In this document: piece by piece, positions 1,856-48,467 of the stretch
Layout of the letters: every line of letters starts with the position of its first letter
Position numbering within the stretch: position 1 is the stretch's first letter
Assembly: GCA_000004985.1 (NCBI GenBank)
Contig: GG738925.1
Origin: Naegleria gruberi
Taxonomy: Eukaryota
Reading direction: 5' to 3' (one strand)
Length of the DNA stretch: 64,000 nucleotides
Translations under genes and position numbers: made by a program
The notes under the pieces: generated by a model
Seen by the model: only the letters and a program-made list of their open reading frames with translations
Told to the model about the DNA's origin: nothing
Databases searched by the model: none

Positions 1856-3904
1856 ATGAATGGAAATGGTCTTGGTGGCAGGGGTTTCTCTCAGAAAAAA
1901 CGAAAGTTTTTGGATCATTATTCATCAAACTTTATTAAACCGAGTAAATATTTAATTCTCTCTCAAGAAAATCTTTGCTCTGATAAACAGCAGGATGACA
2001 AAAATTCACACTTTCGAGAAACAAGAATTATTCCAGAGAGAAATAATTACAATATTCATTCCCATAGCCAAATAGTTGATGATTGTTGGCAGATTATTTT
2101 TGATTTTGTGGAAAAGATTGAAGATAGGAAGAGTATGATTCTTGTGTGTAAACATTGGGCCAACATGTTTATGCAACCATTTATTGGATATTGTTATGAG
2201 ATTTATGATGAAAATAGACATTTGAATGGATTGACAGAATATGTCGAAGAGAATGGAGAAGATGGATTTGTTTGTGAGGGAGGAATGTTTTTTACTGAAA
2301 TGGCAACTTGGAAGGAACCTCTTTGCTATGATAGTCTGGAAGAGGAGGAATACTCTGGATTTAATTGGGATAGAATTCCAGAAAATCAAGTGGAATTTGA
2401 AGGATCTTCTTATAGACAACGAATTCTTCCATTTGGGGTTCCTCTATGTAAGGAAACAATATCAGATCAATATGAATTGGTTTCTAGTGAAATTGATTCA
2501 AGTACTTATAGGAATATGGTAGAAAAATTTATGGGAATTCCAAAATCTGAACAGGGAGCATTATCTCTAAAACCTTTCGAATTGTACGAACAAATTGAAC
2601 ATGAAAAACAAATGGTTTACTCATACATTCATGAAATTCAAAAATCCCTAGATTTTGATGCTGGCAATGCAATTTATGCAGAAGGTAAGGTGATGTATAA
2701 TGATGATGATTTTTATGATTCTTCACAGAATGATCCAGAGTTTATATTTTACGCACTTCGATCTGGAATTCAAAGATTGGCCAGAAAAGCAGGTGTCAAA
2801 TACTTTGAACCTGCTGTGATTGAGGATTATCTTTATGAATTGAAGAGGGTAATTCATTTGGTGCTTGAGAATGCATACGAGAGAAAGTTTTCAAGAAAGA
2901 CTGCGAATTTGGTATTTGAGGAGTCATCTGAACAATATGAACAGTGTTATATCGATCCATGTGATGCCTATCTGCCAACATGTGATGACAATCTTGATAC
3001 AGATCTAAAATTGGATCATACGGAAATATTGGAATCATTTGAGAGAATTACTGGAATGAAAATGTTTTATCAACCAATCAAAGATCCTTATAACTTGAAC
3101 GATACAGATCTCAAGCAATACTTTGCATTAGAGAATGGTACTGAAACAGTTTCTGAATTGCAACCAAAAGAAGAGTTTAAATTTAAAGAGCCAACCATTT
3201 TCAGCAATGAATCTATCCCCGATATTCTGAATGAATCTCAAATAGATGAAGATCTCACTTCAGAGGAGAGTGAAGATGATTCAACTTTACAAACAATTGC
3301 AAATGACAACTTTATAGATGACAGCGAACTATACCATGTCGATTTGGATAATTTAGGAGATTCCCTTCAAGATCAATTACTGAAAGTGTCAATTCGTGTC
3401 CATGAAGAAGTCTACGGAAAGGAAAGAGCTCACAAAGAAAAGCTCTATCTCAAAAATTGGTACGGCTGTAGTGAATTGTTTTACGAGAATTGTTCCAAGG
3501 AATTGGATAATCCACCTTCCATGCAATTCACCCCAATTGAAGAAGATGCAATTTCTGAATCAAATGAAGATGGTATTGATGAAGAGGAAGAGGAAGAGAA
3601 ACGAACACGAGGAATACAAACTAAATTTTCTTCATTGGATTTTGAAGAGGAATCTGAAGTTTCTATTGATGGAGAGTTTGATGTTAAAGAACAAGATACT
3701 ATTGAAAGAGTTAATGAGGAAGATTTGGAATATTTTGGCTATGCTCTCTATGAAGATGATTTCGATGAATTTCCAATATTCAGTGACCAAGATGATTCAG
3801 AAGAAACTTTGGAACAGTCCTCTGAGGAGGAATCTCTTCGATATCATTTAAGAAGAATGCTAAGGGAACAATCTTATGAATGCATTGTTAATTATAACCA
3901 ATGA
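1856..3904 (+). CDS. F-box domain protein with long acidic C-terminal region
   Basis: 682-aa ORF with an A-rich ATG context. F-box-like segment IVDDCWQIIFDFVEKIEDRKSMILVCKHWANMF. D/E-rich C-terminus. Antisense ORFs inside it are short and low-complexity. Confidence 0.6.
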   Translation: MNGNGLGGRGFSQKKRKFLDHYSSNFIKPSKYLILSQENLCSDKQQDDKNSHFRETRIIPERNNYNIHSHSQIVDDCWQIIFDFVEKIEDRKSMILVCKHWANMFMQPFIGYCYEIYDENRHLNGLTEYVEENGEDGFVCEGGMFFTEMATWKEPLCYDSLEEEEYSGFNWDRIPENQVEFEGSSYRQRILPFGVPLCKETISDQYELVSSEIDSSTYRNMVEKFMGIPKSEQGALSLKPFELYEQIEHEKQMVYSYIHEIQKSLDFDAGNAIYAEGKVMYNDDDFYDSSQNDPEFIFYALRSGIQRLARKAGVKYFEPAVIEDYLYELKRVIHLVLENAYERKFSRKTANLVFEESSEQYEQCYIDPCDAYLPTCDDNLDTDLKLDHTEILESFERITGMKMFYQPIKDPYNLNDTDLKQYFALENGTETVSELQPKEEFKFKEPTIFSNESIPDILNESQIDEDLTSEESEDDSTLQTIANDNFIDDSELYHVDLDNLGDSLQDQLLKVSIRVHEEVYGKERAHKEKLYLKNWYGCSELFYENCSKELDNPPSMQFTPIEEDAISESNEDGIDEEEEEEKRTRGIQTKFSSLDFEEESEVSIDGEFDVKEQDTIERVNEEDLEYFGYALYEDDFDEFPIFSDQDDSEETLEQSSEEESLRYHLRRMLREQSYECIVNYNQ

Positions 3905-4089
3905 TTCCGTTTCAGATCTGAAATTTGATTAATCTCCATATTTAAAACTGGAGCACAAATTTAGCAACTTTTTAGCTCCAAACCAATAAATCACTTCTCA
4001 CAACACTTTACAAGTGCACTCTGGAATACAACACTGTTCACTAACACCATTCATCAGGTTCATCAACAAAAAAAAACAAGGCTAAAACA

Positions 4090-5508: not shown

Positions 5509-5608
5509 ACCAAAATAAATATTATAATTGGAAATAACAAATGGAACGTTGCTTTTAATTAAAATTGCCAAACCCCATTTTATCAAAATTTCATGGCTCG
5601 CCACGTTA

Positions 5609-5679
5609 CCGTCTCGGGAGGAATCGAACCTCCGTCAATGGATTCAAAGTCCACTATGCTACCATTACACCACGAGACG
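5609..5679 (-). tRNA. tRNA-Gln: tRNA-Gln (anticodon UUG)
   Basis: Minus-strand sequence CGTCTCG-TG-GTGTAATGGTAGCAT-A-GTGGA-CTTTGAA-TCCAT-TGAC-GGAGG-TTCGATT-CCTCC-CGAGACG-G folds as a cloverleaf. It has a 7-bp acceptor stem, a TTCGATT T-loop and the anticodon loop CTTTGAA. It closely resembles eukaryotic tRNA-Gln(UUG). Confidence 0.85.
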
Positions 5680-9654: not shown

Positions 9655-9900
9655 NNNNNNNNNNNNNNNNNNNNNNNNNNNNNNNNNNNNNNNNNNNNNN
9701 NNNNNNNNNNNNNNNNNNNNNNNNNNNNNNNNNNNNNNNNNNNNNNNNNNNNNNNNNNNNNNNNNNNNNNNNNNNNNNNNNNNNNNNNNNNNNNNNNNNN
9801 NNNNNNNNNNNNNNNNNNNNNNNNNNNNNNNNNNNNNNNNNNNNNNNNNNNNNNNNNNNNNNNNNNNNNNNNNNNNNNNNNNNNNNNNNNNNNNNNNNNN
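9655..9900. other. assembly gap (246 N)
   Basis: Run of N characters. It interrupts the 5' part of the minus-strand zinc-finger gene and the body of a plus-strand gene. Confidence 0.99.
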
Positions 9901-24470: not shown

Positions 24471-24633
24471 CACTAACGATGAACACTTCGGCACTTATTT
24501 CAGGATGCAACACAAAATGCTGAAACTTCCAGCAATTTCTGGTTTGGCGCCATAATTATGAAAGATGATGAAAATCTCACACGTCCTAACCATATCTTCA
24601 CACAAAACAAAAAAACCACACAACAACCACACA

Positions 24634-25175: not shown

Positions 25176-25993
25176 TTATTCTTGTTGTTGTTTCTTGGCC
25201 AAAGCTACGATATTGTACAAATATTGTTCAGGATTCAAACTCATATAATTCTTGACAACCTTGATTGCATCCTTCAATAAATCACCAGAAGAAGCTCCTC
25301 TATTCATTGGGAACTTTCTTCTACCATCCAATTCAAATACATGGCCATTCTTTTCGACGAAACAAACAAAATGCAAATCTGTTACTTCCACAACTTCACT
25401 TTGATTTTGTTCGGAAAGGGCACTACTTTCGTGAGCTTCCTCAACTCTCTTATCACCTTCCAATGATTTGGCAATTTCTTCAGAACTCTTTCCTACATTT
25501 CCATTGATGAAATCTTGCAAAAAGCTTGAACTTGCAACTTGTAATGATTTGATATTGTTGGCCAAGGAGTGAATAATGGCAACAGTACCACATGCATTTC
25601 CTATTCATTGATTCTTAGATTAGACTTCTTCTTCAATAATTACTTACCAATAGTTTGCTTCATAAAGAATAATTCCTTTGGAATGGAGTCTTGATTCTTT
25701 TCCATTTCTTCATCTTCCTTTTGTTGGAGGTTTTGATTTTCCTTGGTCAAAGGAAACAACAACAAGACGGAAATCACAGGCTTTGGAACCATATCCAACA
25801 ATTCATCATCCAACCCGAAAACATCACAATATTCATAATCGCCTCCCAAGCCTAATTTATTAGCATAATTATTCATGAGCTCTGGATTTGACTCCAATGG
25901 AAACCAAGCTTTTAGATTTTAAGCACAAGAAGTAATAATTTAAGATCAAAATAAATAAATTTCATCAAGCCTCTTTGATAACATACTCTTCAT
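25176..25993 (-). CDS. Ubiquitin carboxyl-terminal hydrolase, UCH-L3-like (peptidase C12). Exons complement(join(25176..25600,25648..25908,25987..25993)).
   Basis: Exon 2 encodes WFPLESNPELMNNYANKLGL...FFMKQTIG|. Exon 3 encodes NACGTVAIIHSLAN...HFVCFVEKNGHVFELDGRRKFPMNRG. Together they contain the UCH active-site Cys region QTIGNACGT and the His region. The 47-nt intron is GTAAGT..GAATAG. The upstream region has no in-frame ATG before a TAA. An ATGAAGA|GTATGT micro-exon with A10 immediately upstream of its ATG splices over 78 nt to AAAAG|CTTGG, giving MKTWFPLESNPE, which parallels human MEGQRWLPLEANPE. Confidence 0.75.
25601..25647 (-). other. intron (47 nt) of UCH gene
   Basis: GTAAGT...AATAG. 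Phase 1. Restores the QTIG-NACGT catalytic motif. Confidence 0.75.
25909..25986 (-). other. intron (78 nt) following a 7-nt first coding exon of UCH gene
   Basis: ATGAAGA|GTATGT...CTAAAAG|CTTGG. Inferred because the conserved W-PLE-NPE N-terminus has no in-frame ATG. Confidence 0.45.
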
Positions 25994-26096: not shown

Positions 26097-27149
26097 TTAG
26101 TTCAATAATTCACTAAGGGAAAGTCGTGTTCTACCTTTCCTCATGTTTTCTATTTTTTTTGGTTTTTCAATTTTCAATTTCTTGTAAGAGTTTCGTCCAT
26201 AGGTTTGTTTAATATCCGAAATGAGATCTTTCATTAAGGGAACTTGAAAAAAACTGTATTCTAATGTATCAATATCCGTTTTCAATTCATTTTTCACTGA
26301 GGTTGGCAAATAGGTTAAAATCTGTTGAAAGAATTCAACAAGAATAATTTCCAAAATAGAATCGTGATTGAATGTTTCGTCTATTCCACAATATCCAACT
26401 GGTTCATATTTGTAATTGAAAATAGATTCAATTATGTTAAACCGAGAATGGTGGGTCAATGATAGAGAGTATTTTTCCATTTCAAAGAATTGTAAATCAT
26501 TAATATAAATTCCATATTTATCAACTTTCACTAATAATGGATATCCACAAAATGTAAATAAAACAAACTCCCATTCCTTTTGTTCAGATCCAACGTCCTT
26601 GGTATAAACTATTCCTCTACAATTCTTAATCCTAAATAATATATCGTCCATATCTAAGAATGAAATTTCCATCTCTGGAATAATTTGGTTATGGCTATCA
26701 TATATTAAATTAATATCTTTCAATGTATTTTTCACATATTGCTCATTAACAAGCATTCTTTTATCCAAAGAATTTATAATCTTTTGAAATTTGTCAATAT
26801 TCTCATCGAAACCATAATAAACTAAACTCAATATTTCCAACACATGTTTGTACTTATTCACAAGTTTAAATTTCTTCCCAAAAGAACCACTATAATTTTT
26901 TGTAAATATATTAACAATCTCCTCGAATGACACAGGATTAGCAAATAAATATTCCAAATAGCCTTGTCCATACAAATCCAATTTAAAAAACAAGCAAATA
27001 TATTCCTTGCAAAAACTCTCTCGATTCAACACTTGCCTCCATATTTTACAGACTTGAGAGGAGTGAACAAAGGTATCGGGTGTCGTATACAATAGAATAC
27101 TATGCACCAGATCGGCATAGAGGTTATTGCCACTTCTTTGTGCTGACAT
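26097..27149 (-). CDS. F-box-like domain protein
   Basis: ORF 26097..27170. ATG at 27149 (MSAQRSG) in poly-A context. F-box-like segment LYADLVHSILLYTTPDTFVHSSQVCKIWRQVL. Confidence 0.55.
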   Translation of the reverse strand: MSAQRSGNNLYADLVHSILLYTTPDTFVHSSQVCKIWRQVLNRESFCKEYICLFFKLDLYGQGYLEYLFANPVSFEEIVNIFTKNYSGSFGKKFKLVNKYKHVLEILSLVYYGFDENIDKFQKIINSLDKRMLVNEQYVKNTLKDINLIYDSHNQIIPEMEISFLDMDDILFRIKNCRGIVYTKDVGSEQKEWEFVLFTFCGYPLLVKVDKYGIYINDLQFFEMEKYSLSLTHHSRFNIIESIFNYKYEPVGYCGIDETFNHDSILEIILVEFFQQILTYLPTSVKNELKTDIDTLEYSFFQVPLMKDLISDIKQTYGRNSYKKLKIEKPKKIENMRKGRTRLSLSELLN

Positions 27150-27289
27150 TTTTTTTTGTAACAAAGTCAATTAACAACAGGTTGATTCAAGACAACTAAA
27201 GTTATCCATTATGATTCAAATCTTGTTTAGAAACTTTGCCATCAATGTAGTCAACTCGTCAATCATAAATAGAATTTCATTGTAAAAAA

Positions 27290-28708: not shown

Positions 28709-31316
28709 ATGGGCAAAGTATTTGTATGGGGAGGCACCATTCTCACGAAACCAACTCTCGTTTCTTTTCTCTCACACATGAACGTGATTCAAGTGGGAAC
28801 AAATAATAGGGATCACTTTTATGTGTTAACAGATATCGGAGAAGTTTTAACATTTACAATTCATGATGTTTCTCGTGAGAGTAGTAAATTTACAAAGATT
28901 GATTTTGAATTGGGAGTAAAGGAAAAAATCATCATGATTGCACCATCTGATTATGGAGTTTTTGCCTTGACGAATTTTGGGAAAATTGTAACGTATTTGG
29001 CTAAGAATGGAAATTCATTCAATCGTTATGAAAAACAGATTTTCAATCCGATGGTTACATTGGATGCATCTAAAATTGTAAAGATTAGTTCAGGAGGACA
29101 TGATTCATTGATTTTGGAAAGAGGTTAGTTTAGTTTGAATAAGCTTTTAACGAAGAGATATCAGAAAGTGGAATGAAAACAGTTGTTTCAACTCGTAATA
29201 CTACATCCGATGAACCGTATTCCTCTGCACCTTTATTAGAAATGAAAGTTCCTTTTGTAACTTCATCGAATTATGCAACATATTACACAGATGGAAATGA
29301 TGATTCAGTGTTGCATCAGATGACTGATAATCAATATTCACTTTATTATTCGAGTAACAGAACTATAATAGATCATATTGGAATTAATAATTGGGTGGGA
29401 GGTTCTGCCAGACATCATCACTCCCTCTTTATTTCCTGTAAGTTTTAAATTTAGTGAAATTATGGAGTGATTGGAATTTCTGTATAATAGCTGATGGATT
29501 AGTTTATTCTTTGGGAAAAAATTACGAAACCTTACTGTGTGGAGAGACAATGATGGAAGATAAAAAGATTACCAAATTGAGTGTGCTAAGGAATGTGGAA
29601 AATGTCTATCAATGCAAAGACTATTTAGAAATTCATGGAAAGAATAAGCATTACTTTTCACTTGCTAGAACCAAGACAGGGCAATTGTTTTCATGGGGAG
29701 GAAATGCTGAAAAGCAATTAGGGATATCGTCAGATAGGAAATATGCGATATTCCCTTGTTTAATTACAGCTCTATATGGAATGAGTAAGTTTCATTTTTA
29801 TAGCAGACTTTTAATCTTTCGTATAGAAATTGCACAAGCAGACTGTGGATATAGTGTAGCTATTGCTCTGTCAGAGAATTACTCAACTGCCTTTTCAGAA
29901 CTGTTAAATAAGGAAACACTTAGTGATTTGAAAATTGAGCTCTATGCTAACAACACATCAGAAACAAAAGTAATTTATTTACACAAATGTATATTATTGG
30001 CTAGATGCCCTACCTTACTAAGTTTAATTTTGAGCGGTAAACTAAACTATTTCTTGAGGAAACTATTGATAGATTCACAAGCAAATTATGAAAATTACCA
30101 AAACAGAGAGAACCTTAAAAATTCAGAACAAGTCACTTCGAGAATAGATTGTACAGATCCTGAGGACAATGAGGATCATATTGCGAATGTTTACAATTCT
30201 TTTTTAGTTGTGCTACACTACCTATATGTTGATGATTTGGATTTTTTATCAATGGATTTAGATAAGAATAGAGAAAATGTGGCAATGGTACAAGAGCTCA
30301 TTAATTTTTTCTACTTCCTCGAGCTGAATTATTTCAATGATGAAACTTTTGTGAGTTATAGTATGGCACTGAGTTGTAATATTGATCATTCTCTTTTGAA
30401 ATCATTTAAGGAATGGAACTTTTCATCGAGGAAATTGGAAAATATGTCTCAAAACAATAGAATGATGAGAGCATTTGCTTTGGATAGTTCCAATTCAAAT
30501 ATTGATACAAAGTTTGCTGAGCAGAGAATTGGAGCTCACATGCTTTCAATTATGGGAAAAGAGGATACTTGTGATGATTACAAATTATCGCTTCAGAGCA
30601 AAGATGGTTCACTCAATGTTTCCCTACCACTTCACAAGGTCATTCTAACAAATTCCATTGAATTTTTCAAGGGAGTATTCGAATCCAATATGGAAGAGGA
30701 AAAGAGAGGTGAAATGCATTTGACCATGGATTCAAGTGAAGATTTATATCTATTCCAATTAGAAAATGTCATTCCTCTCCTTTATCATGCTTATTGTGGA
30801 TCCAATTCTGAGAATGTGCAATACCTATTCATGGATCAATTCGATGCCAACCTCACATTATCAAATGCATGTGAATGCTTGGCAGTGGCCAATTATTTTG
30901 CATCACGAGAGTTTAAAGCTTCATGTGAAACTTTCATTTCCAAATTTATAGCAGTTGAGAATGCAATTCCTCTTCTCCTTGTCTGTGAAACACACGAAGC
31001 ATACAGTCTCAAAGAGCTTGTCATTGATTTTGCAGCTTCACATTTCGAATCGATTCAATTAATTCAAGAGTTTCATGATGAAATTTCTGAGGAAATTCGA
31101 GAACATGTCAAGAAATTGGCTAGAAAGAGATCCAAGAAGATTTTGGACAGAAATATTTTGGAAAAGTATTGGAGGAATGAAATTAAGGAACAGGAGCTTT
31201 TTTATGAACCGAAACCTGCCACATCAAGTAGCTCATCTACAACTTCTACCACTCAATCCTCGAATAGAACAAGAAAACCTTCGATATTTTCCCGACTTTT
31301 CAAAGCATTCCAATAA
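28709..31316 (+). CDS. RCC1-like repeat plus double BTB/POZ domain protein (RCBTB/IBtk-like). Exons join(28709..29123,29183..29437,29491..31316), with an alternative acceptor at 29164/29165 for intron 1.
   Basis: Three ORFs in different frames are joined by GTTAGT..AG (phase 1) and GTAAGT..ATAATAG (53 nt, phase 1) introns. RCC1-type repeats VFVWGG, HFYVLTDIGEVLTF, GVFALTNFGKIVTY, KISSGGHDSLILE and IADGLVYSLGKN continue across the junctions. The C-terminal half has two BTB domains (LSDLKIELYANNTSETKVIYLHKCILLARCPTLLSLI and CDDYKLSLQSKDGSLNVSLPLHKVILTNSIEFF). Confidence 0.7.
29124..29182 (+). other. intron 1 of RCC1-BTB gene (59 nt; a 41-nt alternative ends at 29164)
   Basis: The GTTAGT donor is followed by two AG acceptors (CAG at 29164, ACAG at 29182). 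Both keep the downstream frame. Confidence 0.5.
29438..29490 (+). other. intron 2 of RCC1-BTB gene (53 nt)
   Basis: TCC T|GTAAGT...TATAATAG|CT. Restores IS-S-DGLVYSLGKN. Confidence 0.7.
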
Positions 31317-31546: not shown

Positions 31547-33131
31547 ATGTCAGCATCACAAATAGAAGCAAAAGAGGATCAGAGAGCACAAATCGTGATT
31601 CCTATTAATAAAAACTTGAGTAAACACGTTTGGATTAGAGGCTTTACCAATTACAACATCAGTAGACAGACAACAAATGCAGGAATGATTTTTCTTCCCT
31701 CTCCGATTTCATCAAGAAGGAAAACCAAAGTAGCCTTCGGATCAACAGATTATTTTGAGAAATTAAATGTTGAACGGTTATATTCATTCATGGGATATGA
31801 TACTTGGTATTCTAATATAGTAGAGGTTCCGTTTATTGAATTTTCAAGATTGTCATTGTTTGATGATTCGGAATCTTCAGAAGAAATGAATGATCAAGCA
31901 GTAGAGAATGTAGATAATGTAAAGAATGTAGAGAATGTAATGGTTGATGATCTTGTTGAGGATGAATATTTGAATGATGATGATGAATGGATGGACGATG
32001 ATGTTGATGATGAATCATCTGTAATAGAGATTGTGCCAGTTAATGTTGAAGCAAGTGTGGCTGAACAAGTTAAGGAAATGAGAGCCGAGCAAGAGAAAAT
32101 TAGATTTAGAAAATTAATACAGCCAAAACAATTGCTGTCGACAAATTTCAGTGGTACATATTATCCACCTGGAAGAATATTTCAATCAGTTTGTATTGAT
32201 GAAAGGAATAATAATGTTTATGTTTATGGAGGATTTTCAGGGAATAGATCTCCTTGTTCTCTCATTACAAGATTTTCAATTGAAGGTAACGAATTAAAAG
32301 TTGAGGATTTAACTGATTCTTTCCAATTAGTAGAAGCAACAGAAGCCAAAGACAAGCTTGGTAAAACACCTTTCAGAGAGGGACATACGGCAGTAATAAG
32401 GAAAGGAAAAATGTATGTTTTGGCAGGAAATGCTCAACGAACAGGAACTTTTGAAAAGGAATTGTTGGAATTTGATTTGGAAAAAGGAAATATCAAACCC
32501 TACCAGACAATTTGCCTAGGAAAACCATTCACACCAAGAGCTTATCACTCTGCTACATATATTGAAAAACGAGATGTCATGTGTGGTACGTTTTTTATTC
32601 CTTGTCAAGGTATATTAATTTTAATCTGGACAATATTCATCAATAGTTTATGGAGGTAAGATGAAGCCAGGATTACAGTCAGGGGTTTCGAATGAACTAT
32701 TCTTGTTTCATTTTCAAACTCATACTTGGGAAAATATTGAGCTTAGAGATTTCATTTTCCCACCTCTTTCAGGTCATTACATTTTCAAAATTAATAATGA
32801 TAATATAGGGATCATAGGAGGAGTGTCAAAACCATACTCGGAAGAAAAAGAAGATTTAAATTCAAATCTATTTGTTTACAACTTGGAGTATAATTCATTT
32901 TCGGCCATAGATTTGGGACCTTATGGATTCAATGGGAGATATAGCATGCCAGCAGCTTTCAGTGCATCAAATCAACTATTAGCTATTGGGGCTGGAAACA
33001 CCAGTTACAGAGAGGGTGATTTTACAGTCATTTATTTTGAAACTGTGGAAACCAATAGCGAACATTTTGTCAAACCATTGTTGTTGAATTCCTTTGACGA
33101 TGTATCAATAATTTGTCAAACTATGGAATAA
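31547..33131 (+). CDS. Kelch-repeat protein with acidic N-terminal region. Exons join(31547..32585,32647..33131).
   Basis: Kelch-type repeats NNVYVYGGFSG, HTAVIRKGKMYVLAGN, PRAYHSATYIEKRDVMC|VYGGKMKPG, FHFQTHTWENIEL and NNDNIGIIGG. The 61-nt intron TGT G|GTACGT...CAATAG|TT joins two ORFs within a Kelch blade. Confidence 0.7.
32586..32646 (+). other. intron (61 nt) of Kelch-repeat gene
   Basis: GTACGT...AATAG. Phase 1. Reconstitutes the Kelch motif DVMCVYGG. Confidence 0.7.
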
Positions 33132-33208: not shown

Positions 33209-34361
33209 CTAAATATCACTTTCTCCAGCAACGAGTTTAGTTAATTGTTTCATTTCGAGAATGTAATTGAGTCCTTCATCACGAAACTTATTTGCAGAAA
33301 TATCAAGATTCCTTAATTGTTTCATGAGACTAATATACTTAGCTCCCTCATTACCAATAGAATTAAAGGAAATATCAAGTTTTGTTAATTGGTTCATATC
33401 ACTAACATGCTTTGCTCCTTCATCACCAATATAATTATCACAAATGTTGAGATTAGTCAATTGTTTCATTTGTTGACTAATAACTCTTGCTCCTTCATCA
33501 CCAATATCATTCGTGAAACACGAAAGTTTGGTCAACTGTTTCATTCCACAAATGTATTCCATTCCATTCACCAAAATTATTGGCACCGATATTTAGAACA
33601 GTCAATTGTTTCATTTCACTAACGAGTTTCACTCCGTCATCATCAAATATATTTGCAGAAATATTGAGATTGGTCAATTGTTTCATACCACTAAGATGTA
33701 CCACTCCTTGATTACCAATCTTATTGATACAAACATTGAGTTTTGTTAATTGATCCAATTCAGAAATATATTTTGATCCCTTGTCACGAATATTATTTCC
33801 AGAAATATTGAGACTGGTTAATTGTTTCATTGTACTAATATATTCAGCTCCAAAATCATTAATTCTGTTATATGCAATTTTAAGCACTCTCAGTTGTTTC
33901 ATTTCACATATGGATTTAGCTCCCTGATCACATATATCATGATTACTAATATCTAGCATTGTTAATCCTTTCAAATTCTTAATGGAATAAGACAGTTTCT
34001 TATAAACTTTTTCATTATTAATGGAAGACCTTGCAACTTTTAATTTGTAAATATTTTGTAAAAATCTTCCCTCCATTTTCTTGATACAATCACTTTTACA
34101 AATTAATGAAAGTTTCATTCTTTCCAAAATAACAGTCAACCACTGTTTGGAAACGAGTGCACAATTCAACACTAGAAAATTAAAATCATGAAAAGAAAAT
34201 ATTTCACACAAAATATCGGCATAGAAAAGTGGAATATCTTCCTTCAGCTTTTTTGTTTCGGGTGATGATTGATTACAGTTTGATGGATCGAATACTTCTC
34301 TTGTTCGTTTGCTCATTTTTTTTTGATTGTAATTGATCAAACCTTTTTGTAATTGACTCAC
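33209..34361 (-). CDS. F-box plus leucine-rich-repeat (RNase-inhibitor-type LRR) protein. The reading frame is shifted once near 33556..33575.
   Basis: N-terminal F-box-like segment DIPLFYADILCEIFSFHDFNFLVLNCALVSKQW. Roughly 24-aa repeats of the form LxISxNxIGDEGAKYISxMKQLTxL continue across both ORFs (33507..34361 and 33209..33586). The frames switch inside the tandem GAATGGAATGGAATAC. Confidence 0.6.
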
Positions 34362-36872: not shown

Positions 36873-39800
36873 ATGTCTGCAACATCAGCTGCCTCAACAT
36901 CCGACAATACAAAGAAGAGAAAAACATCATTGATGATGGAAGCCTCGGAGGCTACTGAAATTTTTGAAAATGATCAGAATGAAAAGTTGATTGATGAAAT
37001 TTCTGATGCGTTGCATAGATTGTCCCTCCAGAAGCAAACTGAAGAAATGATCAAGAAATTGGTCGAGCAAAAAGATCAAACAAGTGGTGAGAGTAAGAAA
37101 TCATCCACTTTTGATAAACTTGCAATTCTTCAACAAATGCAACAGGAAGAGATGGTAGTGTTAAAAGTTGGTGGTATGTTGTGTGAAATTGTATTTTTAA
37201 CAATCAATTTATTATGATGATTGACAGGTAAATTCTTTTATACAACAATGAAAACTTTGATGGGTGAAAGAGGTAACTCTAAAGTTCAAACAAAGAAAAT
37301 TATTATTGCTGATAAAGTTGGTAAAGCAACTGCTGGTAAGAAGAGAGGTGAAGATGAAGAAGATGAAGAAATGGATGAAGGTGGCGATGAAGAAGGTGGT
37401 GATGAAATGGATGAAGATGGTGAAAGACCAAAAGAAGACGGTATCTCATCACTTGAATATGTTTGTGCTCAAGATAACTTGTTTAAAGTCATGTTTGATT
37501 CTGGTTTTGGTATTGAAAGAGATGAAGCAAACAAGTCTGCAATTTCATTCCCTGACAGAAATCCAGATTATTTCGAATATATTTTAGAACACTTAAGACA
37601 AGGTGGTAAAGTTAAATCTTTGGGTATTGAAAAGTTGAATGCTGACGAATTAGAAAATATTTTAGAAGAATCAAGATATTTTGCAACTGAAAAGTTATCA
37701 GAATATATCTTATTCTTACTTGACAAGTATCACAAATATGATTCAAATTTATCTAATTATGCTGAAATTGAAGAAATTTTGAATGATTCTGTACAAAATT
37801 TGAAAAAGGTTGAAATTCCACTCGAACAAATTCAACAAAGACTCAAATCATTTGAAGATTCAATCAACGAATCCAAGAAGAGTGTTGGTGAATATTCACG
37901 CAAATTGGTTGAACAATATCAAAACTTTATTTTAGGTACTGATTTAGAAAGTGATTTATCTGTAAAGATTGATGTTTCAGGTCAAATTTTCACAATTCCA
38001 TTCACAAGTTTGAGAAAGTATGAGAATTTCCTCCTTTCAAAATACATCTTATCACCAAACTTTGGTTTAAATGAAAATGGTTGTGTATTTATTGATAGAA
38101 ATCCAAAGTTATTTGCCCTTATTCATGGTTACATTATCAGTGGTGGTAAATTTAATCATTTCCCAAAGAATCTTTCACAAGAAAAGAAACTTCAATTGAA
38201 ACAAGAAGCTGAATTCTATGGTTTGACAACACTTGTTCAAGAATATCTTGATCCACTTCGTTATCCAGTTGAAAAGATTGGTAAAGATAATATTGAATTG
38301 AAAGAAAAGGAAGATAAATTGAGAGAAATCTTTGCAAAGGAAAGAGAATCACCATTATTGAATGATCCATATCTTTTATTATCACCCCTCTTCCAAAATT
38401 TAGAAGAAATTAAGAATCAAGAAAAGTATAGAATTGATATTGGTCACTGTCCAAAATTATTAGATTTAACAGATAAGACTAGATATTCTAGACAAGTTTC
38501 TAAACCAAGACTTGTTAATAATTTGAATGGTTTCAAATTGAATTGGCATAGATTCACTCAAGGTGCTTTGGATGGTCTTGATTGGAATAATGTTTTTGCT
38601 GCAGGTGGCGGTATTCTTGGTTGTTGTTTGAAAGATGATAATTTTGATAATAATACTGCAGTCTCAACAATTTATCCAACTTCTGTTAATGAAAGAACTG
38701 AAACAAATACTTCAAGAGCAGTATCAGTCATTGATGATGAAAATGATGAAAATGAAGCTGCTGATTTTGGTTTTTGGAGAAGATTTTCAAAGAAGGCAAC
38801 AACTAAATCTACAGGTGAAGAAGGAGATGAAGAAGAGGAAGAAGAAACAGAACAAAAACAAGAAGTTATTAGCAAGTATCCAATTGGTAGATTCCACAAT
38901 TTAGATTCTATGGGTAATTCTACTTTATACAGTCAATATAGCAGTCATTCCTATGCAAGTCTTGATCAAAGAAAGGCCCGTTCCTCTGAACTTGCTAAAA
39001 CTATTTCTGAATCCACTACCTCAAACAAGGAAAATGCTCGTTTTATCCCTGATGCCAACATTCCTGCTCCATTTAAAAAATCAGATATCGATCTTTTCTT
39101 ATATGCTTTGAGTGAAGAAGAAGCTGAAGAAAAGATTAAACATATTTATCAAACTATCAAGAAGAATATGAGTAGAAGATTATTAATGAATTATGCTGGA
39201 GATAAGATGGAACATAAGGGCTACTATTCTCATTTGAAGGATGAAGAGAAAGCTAAATGTATTTATCAAGATGGTATTATTAGAACTGAAGAAGGTACTT
39301 TGATCAATGATGACGTTTTGGTTGTTAGAACTAAATTTGCTGTCACATTCTATTGTTACAAACTCAGACCAATTCAAGTTGTTTTGAGAATTTACAAATC
39401 ACCTGCAGAAGTTTTGTTAGGTTTTGATATTGATTGTGCAACTATGGGTTTTGATGGAAATCAAGTTTGGTCAAGTGCAAGAGCAAGAAGAGCTTTAATG
39501 TATCATACTAATCTTGTTGATGTTGATAGACAATCTACAACTTATGAATATAGATTGTACAAGTATAGTAAGAGAGGTTTCTCTGTTTCAATTCCAGGTT
39601 ATGATACTGCTAAAGTTCAAAATCAATTGTTACAATATCCACGTAGATTCCCATTCACTTCAACTGAATATTTGTTGCACGGTTTAGCAAGACTTATTGC
39701 TTTTGATAATTCTTGTCGTGCTAAGAATCCAAAACATATTTTAGGTGTTTATGATGATCGTGATCCAAATGCAGCTCAATTAAGAGAAGAAAATAAGGCT

Positions 39801-40787
39801 CTCATCCTTTCTGGTGAATTGAATGTAAAGTCAGACTATCTTGATTTGAATATTATCAAATCATATAAGTATCCTCCAAGCTTTATCTTTACTACTTTAG
39901 AAAAGACTCGTCAGATTGTATCACTTATTAATTTGAAACCTGAAGAACAAAGAGACATTAAGAATTGGCGTGATAGAGAAAAGATTAGAAGAACTTTCAG
40001 AAAAGGAGAAAGTGTTAAATTTGATAGTAGATTGAAAAATAATACTAATATCAAAATGGAAAGAGATCCAGATTGGAAACCTCACTTTATTTATTCTTTG
40101 AATGATATTGATACTGTTCTCAATAGTGAAAAGTTTGATGCAAGAATCTCCAACAAGATTCAATTCCTTACCGTTGATCCAGGAACTCAGAAAATTGGTT
40201 CCTTCCATCCAAAGGATATTAACTTTTATAGAGATGCCTATCAACCAGTTCCATTCTCTAAATTACCAATTTTGAAGGAAGCCAAGATGAGAACTGTTTG
40301 GTTCAAGGCAATGACTGAACTCCCTCCTCAACATGTTATCGACGAAAGAGAAAAACATGTTAAGGAAAATACAAACCAATACGGTTTTTATAATGATAAT
40401 AAGGATTACACCAAGGATCCATTCGAAGAAAGATATCAAAAATTCTCAATGTCCAGACCAAATCCAAATTCACAAAACATCTATGACAAGTGGGTTCAAG
40501 AAGAAATTTGGTTTGAAGCATTCACACCAGAAGAAAGCAACAAGATTGAACAAGAGTTTAGAAAGTTTATTGTTTATGGAAATCCTGAAAGCTTTGCAAT
40601 TTCAGGATCTGAACTTATTGACTTCTCCTATTGGAGACTCTTCCTTGATAGTAACCATCCAACTCATCCAAACACTGCTGCTGCCTTGCATAGAAAGAAT
40701 TTCTGTGAATCTGGTCATTACTTTGGAGGAATTGATGAAGATCAAGTTGGTACTGTTACAACCCTCTCTTACAGATCTTTCTATTAA
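36873..40787 (+). CDS. Large protein with two T1/BTB (K-channel-tetramerisation-type) domains. Exons join(36873..37173,37228..40787).
   Basis: A 54-nt intron GGT G|GTATGT...TGACAG|GT joins ORFs 36873..37217 and 37221..40787 (the second starts at TTG in the track). T1/BTB-like segments FKVMFDSGFGIERDEANKSAISFPDRNPDYFEYILEHLRQGG and VKIDVSGQIFTIPFTSLRKYENFLLSKYIL...GCVFIDRNPKLFALIHGYIISGG. Acidic D/E tracts. The remaining roughly 800 aa are unassigned. Confidence 0.65.
37174..37227 (+). other. intron (54 nt)
   Basis: GTATGT...GACAG. Phase 1. Both sides encode Gly. Confidence 0.65.
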
Positions 40788-43917: not shown

Positions 43918-44055
43918 TAAACTTTATGAATTCGAATAATATTTCAATAGTTGCATTGTAATCATTTTCATTTTCCTTCGAATTAACGAAACTTTCTGTT
44001 TTTGGGATTATTGTTAATCACTAAAATACAAATTTACTAGAAATATATCAATAAA

Positions 44056-45233
44056 TTAAGGAGAAAGTAAATACTTGAGTAAGGCACAATACCAAATAAT
44101 ATTTTTAGGTTCTTCCAATTTAGTATTAGTAATATCCAAATGTAAACTTTCAAAATTATCATAGGCAAATTTATCAGCTTGCTTATTTGAAATTATTCTC
44201 TTTTCTTTCTTATCTTTCTTGGTTGAGATTAGAATAACTTCTGCCTTTGAAGCATGCTTCTTGATTGTTTCTGCTTTTTCTTTCATTGATTCAGATGCAA
44301 AATTATTAGAAGGATCGATCAGTAATAGAACAACTGATGCATTTCTGTAAAATGACAAAGAAACTCGACTATAACGCTCTGGTCCAGATTGATCCCACAA
44401 TTGCTATAATTGACTTGATTGATTTAAGAGCTAATGTTACTTACCATCTTGATTTTGGTAGTATCTCCAAATTGGAAATTCTTGATTCCAAAATCAACTC
44501 CAATTGTTGGGATGTGATGATTTCTTGAAGCATTCACTGGTATTTCATTCATTGCACAATTAAACAATGAAGTCTTTCCACTTGCATAATCACCATCCAA
44601 AACTACCTTTGTCAGAAAATCATACTCTGGTCTGGGTTTAGATTCAGCAGTTACCTTGGTCTCAGGAATACTATTAGTACTATTAGATATAGTAGTACTT
44701 GAACTACTTGCAGGATTCTTTGCAAACATTGATCCAATAAATGATAAGGCACCACTGAAAAATCCTCTTGATGATGAATTGCTCTCATCAACTTTCTGGA
44801 CTGGTTTTGGAGGTGGAATCATTGGTTGATCTGTCAAATCAGAGAATCTTTTAAAACATTCCTTCAAAACACTCAATTCCACATCAACCCACTTTTCTTT
44901 GATTGAACATGATCGAATATCTTCAGAAACTGATGAAATCTTTGCCAATTTACAAGCAAAATCATAAACCCCTTTACGTAATAAATATCTAATAAATTTC
45001 CTTCCTTGTTTTGAATGTAAAAATTGATCCAAATCAGCAAATTGTAATTTCGGATTTAAATTCGTTAATTGTAAAATTGATTTTTCATAATAATCCCAAA
45101 TTAATTCATAGCAAATTCGTTGCCAATATTTACAAACTCGAGAGAAGGTAACAAGCAATTCTACATGACTGATATGAGAGAGAATTTCTCCGATCAAATC
45201 GTTGGGTAAAACTTCAAAGATGTTTTGTGCCAT
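44056..45233 (-). CDS. F-box domain fused to a divergent Rab-like small GTPase domain (catalytic Gln replaced). Exons complement(join(44056..44403,44445..45233)).
   Basis: N-terminus MAQNIFEVLPNDLIGEILSHISHVELLVTFSRVCKYWQRI is a canonical F-box. The C-terminus aligns along its length with Rab: EYDFLTKVVLDGDYASGKTSLF (P-loop GxxxxGKT), TIGVDF (switch I), IKM|QLWDQSGPERY (DTAGQE has become DQSGPE) and ILISTKKD (NKxD has become TKKD). There are no C-terminal Cys prenylation motifs. A 41-nt intron ATG|GTAAGT...ATTATAG|CAA restores the switch II region. Confidence 0.7.
44404..44444 (-). other. intron (41 nt) of F-box/Rab-like gene
   Basis: GTAAGT...TTATAG. Phase 0. Joins ...TKIKM to QLWDQSGPERY. 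Confidence 0.7.
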
Positions 45234-45538: not shown

Positions 45539-47497
45539 ATGCCGTGTGATACCAATAATGACGCCTCTGACACCGTTGCCTCCGCACCAGCATCATTCAT
45601 GTACGAAGAAATAACATGTAATGAGCTTCTACTGCTTCATTCATATAATTCACAAATTAAAAAGTGGATAAAAACTGACGCTCATGAAAATACTCATGAA
45701 TTTTATATGGAACGGGAAGATTCCGATGATGATGATGATGATGAAGATGATGAAGATTATGTAGAGGATAATCAAGTTGATGATGAAGAAAAGGTTGATA
45801 ATGAAAAGAATTTATTCGAAAGAAGAATGATATTTAATTCTGTGAGGGGTAGAACTACAGAACTTGGATATTTGGATCCGTGTGATGATTATCACATCAG
45901 AGAATATAATGATGATTGGGGACGTGTGGAGGAAGTTGAGGAAATTAATATTGGACTATTTTATAATCACCTTTCGAATGAAAATTTTGTAGAGGAGAGG
46001 GAAAAGTTTACCTATGAATGGAAAGATAACATTCTCTGTTTTAGAATAATGCCATATGATTTTGACTCTTTGGGAAAATATGACATGATGAAAGTTATTG
46101 GTGAGATTGAGAATGAAAATTATGCGAAACAATTTGTTGAGGAACAGATTGAATATACGAAATCACCAGAAACAAAGGTCAATTATATGGAATTTGTGAA
46201 TAATCATGCCATTGTTTCAGTATTTGATTATCTTGATACATGTTTCTTGTTGAAAACATGCTCAAAAGTTTCTTCGGAATGGCACAAAATGTTGTTTTAC
46301 AATTCACATATTCAAAATCATATTTTCAAAGGTAGATTACTGGATTTATTCGATGGACAATTTGACCATTTGAGTCGCTTGAATGAGTTTTATAATTTGA
46401 ATTGGTTGGAAACTTATCTGATGAGTGGTGCGTTCGTTTTTGAAATGTTTCAAGAGGGATTGTTAGGTCAATTGGAACACTTTGCTCATTTAAATGCAGT
46501 TGAAGTAGAGCAATTCTTTTACATTGTTCTCAAATTAGATCCTCTTCCTCATCTGGTTGATGATTTGAAGGATGATCATCCACTGATTAATAGATTGAAA
46601 CTCTTACCCCCAAAGAGAGTACTGTTCAGTGTTAATACTCTACCAGAGGTAAAGAGAATGGTATTCAAAAGAGGATTTTTAACACATCTTTTGAGTGTGG
46701 AAGATAATTGTGATCCTGAAGTAGTGATGGAAAAAATTCTTATGGCCAAATGTGTAATTCCAATTCAAGATTGCGAATTTTCAGTAGATTTCAAGAAGGG
46801 AATTTCTTTATATGACGAATTTTTGAAAGAACTTTCTTCAAAATTATTATCATTTAGAATACCATCAAAAAAGACAGATTCAGAATTGGATTGGGCTGCC
46901 AATTGTCTCTGTGAAATGAGAGAAAAGGCTAGCTATTTCATTCACAATATTATTCCCGCCCATCCATTTACCAAGCTTTGTGTGGATGATGATATTCTCA
47001 TTGGACTCCATCTACTCTTACTCGATAACATTTATTCTAAAATTGACTTTCTAACAAACATTCCAATCCTCAACTTTTTGGAATTATTGGAAAATAGAAA
47101 GAGGAATGAATTGACCAATATCAAATCCCTCCTTCCTGAAAAATTCCAATCCAACCTATTTGAAATGATGTTACAAGAACCATCACCATATCAATTTACA
47201 TCTGATTCTCTCACTCCATTTAATCAACCATCAAATTTATTAGAATTTTTAACAGAACATGTTATTGAACCGAGTGAAATTTATCAAGAAAATAGAAAAT
47301 TCTCTGAATGGATTGATAGGGATATTGAGGAATATTTGAAATTCATTAAAACATTCCACACCAAGTCAATTACACCACCTAAACATGTTGACATGTTATT
47401 TCACTTTCACATGTTACATCCAAACAATTACATGCCAGATTGTTTGAGAATTGCAAGATCAATCAAGAATCACAAATTTAACTTTATTAAAAATTAA
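45539..47497 (+). CDS. F-box-like domain protein with poly-Asp/Glu tract (652 aa)
   Basis: Poly-A ATG context. Internal F-box-like segment HAIVSVFDYLDTCFLLKTCSKVSSEWHKML. DDDDDDEDDED tract. Confidence 0.5.
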   Translation: MPCDTNNDASDTVASAPASFMYEEITCNELLLLHSYNSQIKKWIKTDAHENTHEFYMEREDSDDDDDDEDDEDYVEDNQVDDEEKVDNEKNLFERRMIFNSVRGRTTELGYLDPCDDYHIREYNDDWGRVEEVEEINIGLFYNHLSNENFVEEREKFTYEWKDNILCFRIMPYDFDSLGKYDMMKVIGEIENENYAKQFVEEQIEYTKSPETKVNYMEFVNNHAIVSVFDYLDTCFLLKTCSKVSSEWHKMLFYNSHIQNHIFKGRLLDLFDGQFDHLSRLNEFYNLNWLETYLMSGAFVFEMFQEGLLGQLEHFAHLNAVEVEQFFYIVLKLDPLPHLVDDLKDDHPLINRLKLLPPKRVLFSVNTLPEVKRMVFKRGFLTHLLSVEDNCDPEVVMEKILMAKCVIPIQDCEFSVDFKKGISLYDEFLKELSSKLLSFRIPSKKTDSELDWAANCLCEMREKASYFIHNIIPAHPFTKLCVDDDILIGLHLLLLDNIYSKIDFLTNIPILNFLELLENRKRNELTNIKSLLPEKFQSNLFEMMLQEPSPYQFTSDSLTPFNQPSNLLEFLTEHVIEPSEIYQENRKFSEWIDRDIEEYLKFIKTFHTKSITPPKHVDMLFHFHMLHPNNYMPDCLRIARSIKNHKFNFIKN

Positions 47498-47564
47498 ACT
47501 TACAATTATTGTAAAATGACGTTTACAAAAAAGTGCAAATTCAAAATTTCTCAAATTAAAAAAA

Positions 47565-48467
47565 ATGCCACAACAAGAACTCACCATTCCTTTGCCACTC
47601 ATTGCATTATACTTAGGCAGCGCCTCGGAAGTGAGTAAATTAATGTTCCTCTGTAGAAATTCTCGTAAAATTTTACAAGAATCGGAACAAGTTGATCTTG
47701 AAATCTTTCATCCAATCGTTGAAGATTTAATTATTCGAAAATTGGGAGGAAACAGCAAAGAATTACTCGAACACTCGCCAACTAAGAGTTGGTATGAAAT
47801 ATTGATGGAATTTTACAATTTTCCATTTAAATACTCGGAAGAAATTGATCTATTTAATCATGATGAATATTTAACATTTAAGAATTGTGGAGGAGTTACA
47901 ATGATTTTCATATACGAACCATGTGAATTGATGGAAATTGTGTTGAGAAAGGTGAATGAAAGTAAAATGATGGAATTTCACAAAATTCTATTCGCACTCT
48001 CAGTATTACAACAAGAAGACATTCCTGAACTAGCTCCATTGAGTGTGAAATTGAGTAGTAATGATTCGAATCAGCCAATTTCGTATGGAAAATTATTCCT
48101 CTTAATGATGAATGACAAATTGAAATATTGTGAAATTTCCAATACTTTTGAAACTATTCGATTTGATTCGTTTCCAAAATTCAAACCTCAAAAAACTAAA
48201 CTCTCTCCAGCCAATGATATTTTCAAATTATGTGAAAATCCTCCATACGGAATCAAAAATAAGAATTCACTCAATTTGACAAAAATAAGAAGTGACATTT
48301 ATGGAGATTACAAAAGTTTGGAATCGTATAATTGGGAATCTCATTTGGAAACTGAATGGAGTTCATTTTGGGAAGCAGGTAAAGAATGGTGGGGAACCTA
48401 TGCACATTCTTCCTACTTTCCTATTCGAAACCTTTTCATTATTGCATTTGCCTCAACCACTGACTAA
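47565..48467 (+). CDS. hypothetical protein (300 aa), possible degenerate F-box at N-terminus
   Basis: Poly-A ATG context. LPLIALYLGSASEVSKLMFLCRNSRKIL resembles an F-box. Confidence 0.45.
   Translation: MPQQELTIPLPLIALYLGSASEVSKLMFLCRNSRKILQESEQVDLEIFHPIVEDLIIRKLGGNSKELLEHSPTKSWYEILMEFYNFPFKYSEEIDLFNHDEYLTFKNCGGVTMIFIYEPCELMEIVLRKVNESKMMEFHKILFALSVLQQEDIPELAPLSVKLSSNDSNQPISYGKLFLLMMNDKLKYCEISNTFETIRFDSFPKFKPQKTKLSPANDIFKLCENPPYGIKNKNSLNLTKIRSDIYGDYKSLESYNWESHLETEWSSFWEAGKEWWGTYAHSSYFPIRNLFIIAFASTTD

What the first reader, a model, noticed from the sequence alone, without database searches (positions are those of the whole stretch)
1856..48467. Local concentration of F-box and BTB substrate-adaptor genes plus a deubiquitinase
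Within about 46 kb at least six genes carry F-box-like N-terminal segments, each with a different C-terminal module: 1856..3904 (acidic), 26097..27149, 33209..34361 (LRR), 44056..45233 (Rab-like), 45539..47497 (acidic) and 47565..48467 (weak). Two BTB proteins (28709..31316 RCC1-BTB and 36873..40787 T1/BTB) and a Kelch protein are interleaved, and a UCH deubiquitinase sits at 25176..25993. This looks like a lineage-specific, possibly tandemly expanding family of cullin-RING adaptors.
Basis: inference. Interest (0 to 1): 0.55.

Follow-up and report, generated by a model that had tools for sequence, protein, structure and literature searches.

The report
Unrelated F-box genes sitting close together
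A 47-kb stretch of the Naegleria gruberi genome does hold five or six F-box-type genes, two BTB genes and a deubiquitinase, but they belong to unrelated, genome-wide dispersed families in an organism already known to be rich in such genes, so this is a loose neighbourhood and not a tandemly expanding family.

Summary
The window is Naegleria gruberi NEG-M, from a 182,562-bp scaffold.

**F-box support by gene**
- Two genes pass Pfam's own threshold: 26097-27149 and 44056-45233.
- Three are sub-threshold: 1856-3904, 33209-34361 and 45539-47497. A profile built from Naegleria F-boxes outside the window still ranks these five genes as the top five of 61 ORFs (P 9e-14 to 7e-4). The next best ORF is at P 0.03.
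- The sixth gene (47565-48467) is supported only through its family.
- The F-box of 45539-47497 is internal (aa 225-254), not N-terminal.
- The BTB, Kelch and UCH calls are correct.

**Tandem duplication is not supported**
- No pair among the six is similar (BLASTP E at least 0.4).
- There are no inter-gene DNA repeats.
- The nearest relatives of four genes lie on other scaffolds.

**Prior knowledge**
- The Rab-like gene is XP_002669579.1, already catalogued as an F-box Rab-like GTPase (Herman et al. 2021).
- F-box and BTB diversification in N. gruberi is already published (Grau-Bové et al. 2015).

**Open point**
I could not test whether six such genes among about 25 exceeds the genome-wide density. 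Depending on the assumed genome total, my estimate gives 0.03 to 1.5 such clusters per genome by chance.

Verdict: real genes, an ordinary kind, modest interest.

The parts
1856..3904 (+). g1 (EFC36786, 682 aa). It carries a TIR1-like F-box motif at 2072-2170 (aa 73-105), acidic C-terminal regions and a histone-H4-like stretch at 2756-2902.
   Evidence: Pfam F-box_5 scores 19.5 bits, E 7e-4, below the cut-off. The PDB profile's top hit is the TIR1 F-box, E 0.086. hhalign of g1 plus its paralogue against the Naegleria F-box profile gives 92.6%, P 4e-7. The paralogue P0157 is 58% identical and lies on another scaffold.
25176..25993 (-). UCH-L3-type deubiquitinase with three exons (25987-25993, 25648-25908, 25176-25600), 230 aa.
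   Evidence: Peptidase_C12 scores 81 bits on the last exon. The spliced model gives QTIGNACGT and HF...ELDGR catalytic motifs.
26097..27149 (-). g2, a 350-aa ORF with an N-terminal F-box (27018-27122). No annotated protein and no homologue was found.
   Evidence: Pfam F-box scores 21.3 bits, above the 20.5 cut-off. hhalign gives P 2.4e-4, rank 4 of 61. The exact sequence is not in the protein collection, and a search that included it returned nothing.
28709..31316 (+). RCC1-repeat plus BTB protein. The best BTB stretch is at 30591-30944.
   Evidence: Pfam BTB scores 27.2 bits (cut-off 20.5, two stretches), with RCC1 at 26.1 bits and RCC1-like domain hits on both exons.
31547..33131 (+). Kelch-repeat protein with no F-box and no BTB.
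   Evidence: Kelch_3 scores 42 bits, with Kelch_4 and KLHDC2-type hits on both exons. There is no F-box signal.
33209..34361 (-). g3 (EFC36834), combining an F-box-like motif (34119-34229) with 24-residue RNI-type LRRs. The reading frame is broken by a 2-nt deficit near 33554-33581.
   Evidence: LRR_6 and LRR_8 hits are strong, while F-box-like scores 17.3 bits, below the cut-off. The motif is conserved in at least 11 N. gruberi paralogues on other scaffolds. The profile scores 54 bits. The 72-nt repeat period drops to 70 nt between the repeat copies at 33498 and 33568. The NCBI model stops there at 269 aa.
36873..40787 (+). Protein with two T1-type BTB_2 domains (the second at 37962-38237) and a long C-terminal region of unknown function.
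   Evidence: BTB_2 scores 62 bits with two stretches. The first domain spans the exon junction ...KVGG|KFFYTT....
44056..45233 (-). g4 (XP_002669579.1 / EFC36835, 378 aa), with an F-box (45096-45212) and a divergent Rab-like GTPase. It has one 41-nt intron (44404-44444).
   Evidence: F-box-like scores 31.0 bits and F-box 29.3 bits, both above their cut-offs; Ras scores 45 bits. The spliced model equals the NCBI protein exactly. It is listed as 'Rab ... F-box' in Herman et al. 2021 Table S8. It is 70% identical to XP_002670359.1.
45539..47497 (+). g5 (EFC36799, 652 aa), made of an acidic N-terminus, an internal F-box-like motif (46211-46297, aa 225-253) and a roughly 400-aa helical C-terminal region. 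It is an orphan.
   Evidence: Pfam F-box-like scores only 13.3 bits, E 0.075. The Naegleria F-box HMM scores 20.5 bits, E 4e-6 among 316 ORFs. hhalign gives P 4.7e-5. No homologues were found.
47565..48467 (+). g6 (EFC36800; the NCBI model is truncated to 188 aa). It has a degenerate F-box-like N-terminus (47580-47678) and a conserved C-terminal PPYG...EWWG...ASTTD domain (48240-48464).
   Evidence: There is no Pfam hit. 31 homologue clusters were found, including N. gruberi, N. lovaniensis and Willaertia proteins, several named F-box domain-containing. 4 of 23 members hit Pfam F-box. The family N-terminus against the F-box profile gives 95.7%. A 300-aa ENA protein supports the long ORF.

Best explanation
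The region is a neighbourhood of independent genes, not one family or one system.

Each F-box-type gene most likely encodes a substrate receptor that docks through its F-box onto Skp1-Cul1-Rbx1 and presents whatever its C-terminal module binds:
- g3: LRR array.
- g4: Rab-like GTPase.
- g5: helical orphan domain.
- g6: PPYG/EWWG domain.
- g1: acidic, H4-like region.

The two BTB proteins would likewise serve Cul3. The UCH is a general deubiquitinase.

The genes arrived here separately. They belong to at least six different families, most of them dispersed over many scaffolds. Their proximity reflects the very high number of F-box and BTB genes in N. gruberi. A tendency of fast-evolving, lineage-specific genes to share regions may add to it.

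Shown: the domain content, the lack of paralogy, and the dispersal of the relatives. Inferred: Skp1 or Cul3 binding, and the cause of the co-location.
For: -
- There is no pairwise similarity among the six genes: the best BLASTP E is 0.41, and the alignments are short.
- F-box segments are 18-36% identical within the cluster. The nearest outside relatives are 93% (g4), 68% (g3) and 69% (g1) identical.
- No inter-gene DNA repeats exist. Only the intragenic LRR period and GAT/GAA acidic runs were found.
- Relatives lie on other scaffolds.
- g4 is already catalogued among at least 26 N. gruberi F-box Rab-like genes. Herman et al. state that F-box is the most frequent extra domain on Naegleria GTPases and describe birth-and-death evolution.
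- Grau-Bové et al. name N. gruberi as a lineage with BTB and F-box diversification.
- The genes lie on both strands. They are interleaved with a kinase, a copine, a P-type ATPase, a PAP2 protein and a TLDc protein.
Against: - Six F-box-type genes among about 25, three of them adjacent within 44.0-48.5 kb, plus two BTB genes, is a high density.
- My own Poisson scan estimate gives about 0.03 chance clusters per genome if N. gruberi has about 300 such genes, and about 1.5 if it has about 600. Chance alone is therefore not established.
- The genome total under the same lenient definition is unknown.
- Skp1 binding has not been tested for any of the six.
- The motifs of g1, g5 and g6 are weak.
Confidence: 0.55

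Rival explanations
1. The enrichment is real and regional. This part of the scaffold is a fast-evolving compartment where lineage-specific, birth-and-death gene families (F-box, BTB, orphans) accumulate by dispersed duplication or retention. This would resemble the F-box-rich chromosome arms of C. elegans or the F-box-rich regions of Arabidopsis, but without local tandem copies.
For: - Density is high: 6 of about 25 genes, with three adjacent.
- There are signs of gene turnover. g3 is frameshifted. g2 is unannotated and has no homologues. g5 is an orphan. The F-box of g6 is degenerate.
- Many neighbouring ORFs have no Pfam domain.
- Herman et al. report birth-and-death evolution for the F-box Rab-like clades.
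Against: - No genome-wide baseline is available.
- The homologue searches relied on shared 5-residue words, so 'orphan' status is weak evidence.
- Conserved housekeeping genes (UCH, THF dehydrogenase, prohibitin, P-type ATPase) lie in the same window.
Confidence: 0.3
2. This is an ancient tandem array. One F-box gene duplicated locally, and the copies then diverged beyond recognition and swapped their C-terminal modules.
For: All six share a weak F-box-type motif, and three of them are adjacent.
Against: - No pair is significantly similar.
- For g1, g3 and g4 the closest F-box lies on another scaffold, at 69-93% identity, against at most 36% within the cluster.
- No DNA-level repeats link the genes.
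Confidence: 0.08
3. This is a functional ubiquitin module. The adaptors and the UCH are co-regulated and act on common targets.
For: The only support is co-location, plus the divergent g4/g5 pair separated by 305 bp.
Against: - The genes are on both strands and interleaved with unrelated genes.
- The UCH is a standard UCH-L3-type enzyme.
- No shared sequence elements were found.
- Functional clustering of non-paralogous genes is rare in eukaryotes (general knowledge).
Confidence: 0.04

Closest known systems
Naegleria F-box Rab-like GTPases (Herman et al. 2021, BMC Biol 19:142, Additional files 4 and 10)
   Same: g4 is XP_002669579.1, which that table lists as 'Rab, F-box'. It is 70% identical over its full length to XP_002670359.1 of the same clade.
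   Different: Nothing differs; it is a catalogued member. The paper does not discuss its genomic neighbours.
FBXL-type F-box/LRR proteins (Skp2, FBXL family; RNI-like LRR_6 repeats)
   Same: g3 has an N-terminal F-box-type motif followed by 24-residue RNI-type LRRs.
   Different: The F-box falls below the Pfam threshold. The family is a Naegleria-specific expansion. The g3 reading frame is broken by a 2-nt deficit.
TIR1/COI1-type F-box (Pfam F-box_5)
   Same: The g1 motif aligns with TIR1 residues 14-56, including the stretch after the F-box.
   Different: The scores are marginal (E 7e-4 and 0.086). g1 has no LRR domain. The rest of the protein is acidic and has an H4-like segment.
Tandem F-box and BTB gene arrays of C. 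elegans and Arabidopsis
   Same: The local density of cullin-RING adaptor genes is high, in a lineage with an expanded repertoire.
   Different: Those arrays consist of recognisable paralogues made by tandem duplication. Here no two neighbours are paralogous.
RCBTB (RCC1+BTB) and KCTD (T1-type BTB) proteins
   Same: The domain combinations match: RCC1 repeats with BTB, and BTB_2 domains.
   Different: The T1-type protein has two BTB_2 domains and a roughly 800-aa C-terminal region with no known domain. Cul3 binding was not tested.
UCH-L3/UCH-L1 deubiquitinases (Peptidase C12)
   Same: It has the full catalytic core, with Cys, His and Asp motifs.
   Different: No differences were noted.

Membership tests
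F-box protein (SCF substrate receptor) | An F-box domain recognised by the curated models (PF00646, PF12937, PF18511) at the gathering threshold. | tested here: inconclusive
   Met for g2 (21.3 against 20.5) and g4 (31.0 against 24.3). Below threshold for g1 (19.5 against 25.5), g3 (17.3 against 24.3) and g5 (13.3). No hit for g6.
F-box protein (SCF substrate receptor) | An F-box motif recognised by a lineage-specific profile and separated from background. | tested here: met
   g4, g3, g5, g2 and g1 are the top five of 61 ORFs (P 9e-14 to 7e-4; the next ORF is at 0.03). g6 qualifies only through its family profile (95.7%; 4 of 23 members hit Pfam F-box).
F-box protein (SCF substrate receptor) | A three-helix F-box fold. 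| tested here: inconclusive
   The AlphaFold2 models of g1 (2-sequence alignment) and g5 (single sequence) had mean pLDDT of 31 and 37 and are unusable.
F-box protein (SCF substrate receptor) | Binding to Skp1. | not testable with these tools
   This needs pull-down, yeast two-hybrid or co-fold modelling with N. gruberi Skp1.
Tandemly duplicated gene family | Neighbouring members are each other's paralogues, detectable at protein or DNA level. | tested here: not met
   All-against-all BLASTP gave E of at least 0.4. No inter-gene repeats were found. The nearest F-boxes lie outside the cluster.
Naegleria F-box Rab-like GTPase clade | An N-terminal F-box plus a divergent Rab-like GTPase, and listing in Herman 2021 Table S8. 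| tested here: met
   g4 is XP_002669579.1, listed as 'Rab ... F-box', and is 70% identical to clade member XP_002670359.1.
BTB-domain Cul3 adaptor | A BTB/POZ or T1 BTB_2 domain above the Pfam threshold. | tested here: met
   BTB scores 27.2 bits (29454-31316). BTB_2 scores 62 bits with two stretches (37221-40787).
BTB-domain Cul3 adaptor | A Cul3-binding surface (3-box) or a demonstrated Cul3 interaction. | not tested
   Many BTB and T1 proteins do not bind Cul3, so the adaptor role is an inference.
UCH deubiquitinase (Peptidase C12) | The Peptidase_C12 domain with the catalytic Cys, His and Asp. | tested here: met
   The domain scores 81 bits. The spliced protein contains QTIGNACGT, DLHF and ELDGR.
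Statistically significant gene cluster | A local density above the genome-wide density after correction for scanning. | not testable with these tools
   N. gruberi contigs could not be retrieved, and no published count was found.

The most novel reading that the evidence does not exclude
The block, and especially the three adjacent non-paralogous F-box-type genes at 44.0-48.5 kb, is a genuine non-random island of cullin-RING substrate receptors that assembled without tandem duplication. That would mean selection or a genome compartment gathers functionally similar but unrelated adaptor genes in Naegleria. Within it, g1 (F-box plus H4-like histone-fold segment) and the g6 family (F-box plus an undescribed PPYG/EWWG domain that also occurs alone in metagenomic proteins) would be new adaptor architectures.
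Probability: 0.12. Interest if true: 0.55.

Novelty: new member of a known kind. Interest (0 to 1): 0.25.

Why it matters
If the co-location proved non-random, it would show that cullin-RING adaptor genes in a free-living excavate gather in particular genome regions without tandem duplication. That would bear on how large adaptor repertoires grow and turn over.

As it stands, the value is mostly in annotation:
- an unannotated F-box ORF (g2);
- a truncated NCBI model (g6);
- a frameshifted F-box/LRR gene (g3);
- an internal F-box in an orphan protein (g5);
- two adaptor architectures worth a closer look (g1 and the g6 family).

Tried and rejected
- I tried to fetch N. gruberi DNA around window genes and paralogues, to sample control regions. 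No gene positions are on record.
- A full-length g5 homologue search was swamped by acidic low-complexity words: 8000 candidates and no hit.
- A chimeric query (g1 aa 55-440, g5 aa 190-652 and g2) returned only g1 and its paralogue.
- AlphaFold2 on g1 (2 sequences) and on g5 aa 188-652 (single sequence) gave pLDDT of 31 and 37, so no fold search was run.
- A PDB profile search with the g6 family gave only marginal importin-alpha and FBXW11 hits.
- Literature searches for a published N. gruberi F-box count found only the qualitative statement of Grau-Bové et al. and the GTPase table of Herman et al..
- The Grau-Bové spreadsheet supplement holds BLAST tables, not counts.
- The bacterial promoter/terminator scan is irrelevant for a eukaryote.
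- I rejected a GT-AG intron as the explanation for the g3 frame break. The only candidate is 36 nt, which preserves the frame, and the LRR period shows a 2-nt deficit.
Full report
**Source and layout**

The window is from Naegleria gruberi NEG-M. Exact translations match EFC36786, EFC36793, EFC36799 and EFC36802 on a 182,562-bp scaffold, and EFC36834, EFC36835 and EFC36800. G+C is about 33% and genes are tightly packed on both strands. UniProt accessions run in positional order from D2W299 (g1) to D2W2C0 (g6), which gives 22 annotated genes. Counting unannotated ORFs, I find about 25 genes between 1856 and 48467.

**Check of the observation with general models**

Pfam results for the six candidates:
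- g2 (26097-27149, minus strand) passes the gathering threshold: F-box 21.3 bits against a cut-off of 20.5.
- g4 (44056-45233, minus strand) passes it: F-box-like 31.0 bits against 24.3, and F-box 29.3 bits.
- g1 (1856-3904) is below threshold: F-box_5 19.5 bits, E 7e-4.
- g3 (33209-34361, minus strand) is below threshold: 17.3 bits, E 4e-3.
- g5 (45539-47497) is below threshold: 13.3 bits, E 0.075.
- g6 (47565-48467) has no hit.

Thirty other window ORFs gave no F-box or BTB hit at E <= 0.1.

- RCC1 plus BTB (BTB 27.2 bits).
- A protein with two T1-type BTB_2 domains (62 bits).
- A Kelch protein.
- A three-exon UCH-L3-type deubiquitinase with intact QTIGNACGT, His and Asp motifs.

**Check with a lineage-specific profile**

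I built an F-box profile from 25 Naegleria sequences, none of them from the window. Eleven are F-box Rab-like proteins printed in Herman et al. 2021 Table S8. Fourteen are paralogues of g3.

With hmmsearch over all 316 six-frame ORFs of at least 50 aa:
- g4 scored 60.8 bits.
- g3 scored 54.3 bits.
- g5 scored 20.5 bits (E 4e-6).
- g2 scored 8.9 bits.
- g1 scored 8.3 bits.
- Noise began at 7.6 bits.

With hhalign over the 61 ORFs of at least 100 aa, the top five were exactly g4, g3, g5, g2 and g1 (P 9e-14, 8e-12, 4.7e-5, 2.4e-4, 7e-4). There was then a clear gap to P 0.03 and worse.

Further support for g1:
- Its profile with paralogue P0157 reaches 92.6% probability (P 4e-7).
- The best PDB match of that profile is the TIR1 F-box (E 0.086), which fits the Pfam F-box_5 hit.

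g6 alone is not detected, but its family supports it:
- The family has 31 homologue clusters, from N. gruberi, N. lovaniensis and Willaertia magna. Several are named F-box domain-containing protein.
- Its N-terminal profile matches the F-box profile at 95.7% (P 1e-8).
- 4 of 23 members hit Pfam F-box (best E 1.3e-6).

So five genes carry a credible F-box-type motif, and the sixth is a degenerate member of an F-box family.

**Test of the tandem-duplication idea**

- All-against-all BLASTP among the candidate proteins found no significant pair. The best E is 0.41 on a 24-residue stretch.
- F-box segments aligned to the profile are 18-36% identical within the cluster.
- The nearest F-boxes of g4, g3 and g1 are 93%, 68% and 69% identical and are encoded elsewhere.
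- A repeat search over the whole window found only the intragenic 72-nt LRR period of g3 and GAT/GAA acidic runs. Nothing links the genes.

Nearest relatives of each gene:
- g1: its paralogue (58% identity) is on a 189,881-bp scaffold.
- g3: its paralogues are on more than ten other scaffolds.
- g6: its N. gruberi relatives are on three other scaffolds.
- g2 and g5: no detectable relatives.

The array is therefore not a product of recent local duplication.

**What is already known**

- g4 is XP_002669579.1. Herman et al. 2021 list it as a Rab with an F-box.
- Their supplementary text describes three divergent Rab-like clades with an N-terminal F-box. It calls F-box the most frequent accessory domain on Naegleria Ras-superfamily GTPases and notes birth-and-death evolution.
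- I counted 26 F-box-flagged Rab-like entries for N. gruberi in the first two parts of that table.
- Grau-Bové et al. 2015 name N. gruberi as a lineage with BTB and F-box diversification.

**Is the density more than chance?**

I could not test this:
- N. gruberi contigs are not retrievable with the locus tools.
- No paper in the library gives a genome-wide count.

My own arithmetic takes about 15,700 genes, a figure recalled from the 2010 genome paper, which could not be opened here. The expected number of runs with six F-box-type genes in 25 is:
- about 0.03 per genome if the lenient-definition total is about 300;
- about 1.5 per genome if the total is about 600.

Only two of the six pass Pfam's threshold, so the lenient total may be several times the Pfam count. 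With Pfam-passing genes alone (2 of 25) the region is unremarkable. I therefore treat a real enrichment as possible but unproven.

**Mechanism**

The best-supported reading is that each gene acts alone as a substrate receptor:
- The F-box docks on Skp1-Cul1.
- The variable C-terminal module selects the targets: LRRs in g3, a Rab-like GTPase in g4, a helical orphan region in g5, the PPYG/EWWG domain in g6, and the acidic, H4-like region in g1.
- The BTB proteins would serve Cul3.

Domain content is shown. Skp1 or Cul3 binding is inferred from what is established for these families. The UCH is a general enzyme, and nothing ties it to its neighbours.

**Verdict**

Two of the six genes are solid by general models, three by lineage profile, and one by family only.
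- The tandem-expansion interpretation is not supported.
- The kind of thing is already known for this organism.
- The possible regional enrichment and a few annotation corrections are the only new elements.

Noticed in passing
window 2756-2902 (g1 aa 301-349): The segment LRSGIQRLARKAGVKYFEPAVIEDYLYELKRVIHLVLENAYE aligns with histone H4 residues about 28-80. Many H4 PDB entries match in the same register, at E 0.19-2. The paralogue P0157 reads IKRLARRGGIKYF, which is closer still to H4. This may be a histone-fold segment inside an F-box-type protein. Pfam reports nothing there.
   Followed up: partly
window 33554-33581, within 33209-34361 (minus strand): The g3 reading frame shifts inside an LRR (NNFG|VNGMEY). 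The 72-nt repeat spacing drops to 70 nt at this point, and the NCBI model ends there at 269 aa. This is either a sequencing error or a recently truncated gene. Four to five further LRRs follow in another frame.
   Followed up: yes
window 26097-27170 (minus strand): A 350-aa ORF with a Pfam-passing F-box has no matching protein in the public collection, and no homologue was found. It appears to be unannotated in N. gruberi.
   Followed up: partly
window 47565-48467; C-terminal domain 48240-48464: The NCBI model EFC36800 covers only the last 188 aa, whereas a 300-aa ENA protein (about 97% identical) supports the full ORF. The C-terminal PPYG...W..W...EWWG...ASTTD domain has no Pfam family. It also occurs as short stand-alone proteins of 180-240 aa in metagenomes, possibly bacterial.
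   Followed up: partly
window 44056-44403 and 44445-45233 (g4): The Rab-like GTPase reads WDQSGPE where Rabs have WDTAGQE, so the catalytic glutamine is replaced by proline. The P-loop reads GDYASGKT. The protein is probably GTPase-deficient or locked, like its paralogue XP_002670359.1 (WDQCGPE).
   Followed up: no
window 24565-25074 (+): A 169-aa protein matches DUF2262, 'uncharacterized protein conserved in bacteria' (72 bits). It may be a bacterial-type gene in the amoeba, located next to the UCH gene.
   Followed up: no
window 4090-5508 (+): A single ORF combines a CDP-alcohol phosphatidyltransferase domain (46 bits) with a weak PhyH-like dioxygenase region (19.4 bits, below the cut-off).
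   Followed up: no
window 27290-28624 (+): A protein made of DUF4116 repeats (113 bits). Herman et al. list what appears to be the same repeat (printed there as 'DUF41') fused to a Rab5 paralogue in N. gruberi.
   Followed up: no
window 38240-40787 (+): The double BTB_2 protein has a roughly 800-aa C-terminal region with no recognisable domain.
   Followed up: no
window 9655-9900 and 5608-5680: There is an assembly gap of 246 N, and a tRNA-Gln(TTG) gene on the minus strand.
   Followed up: no
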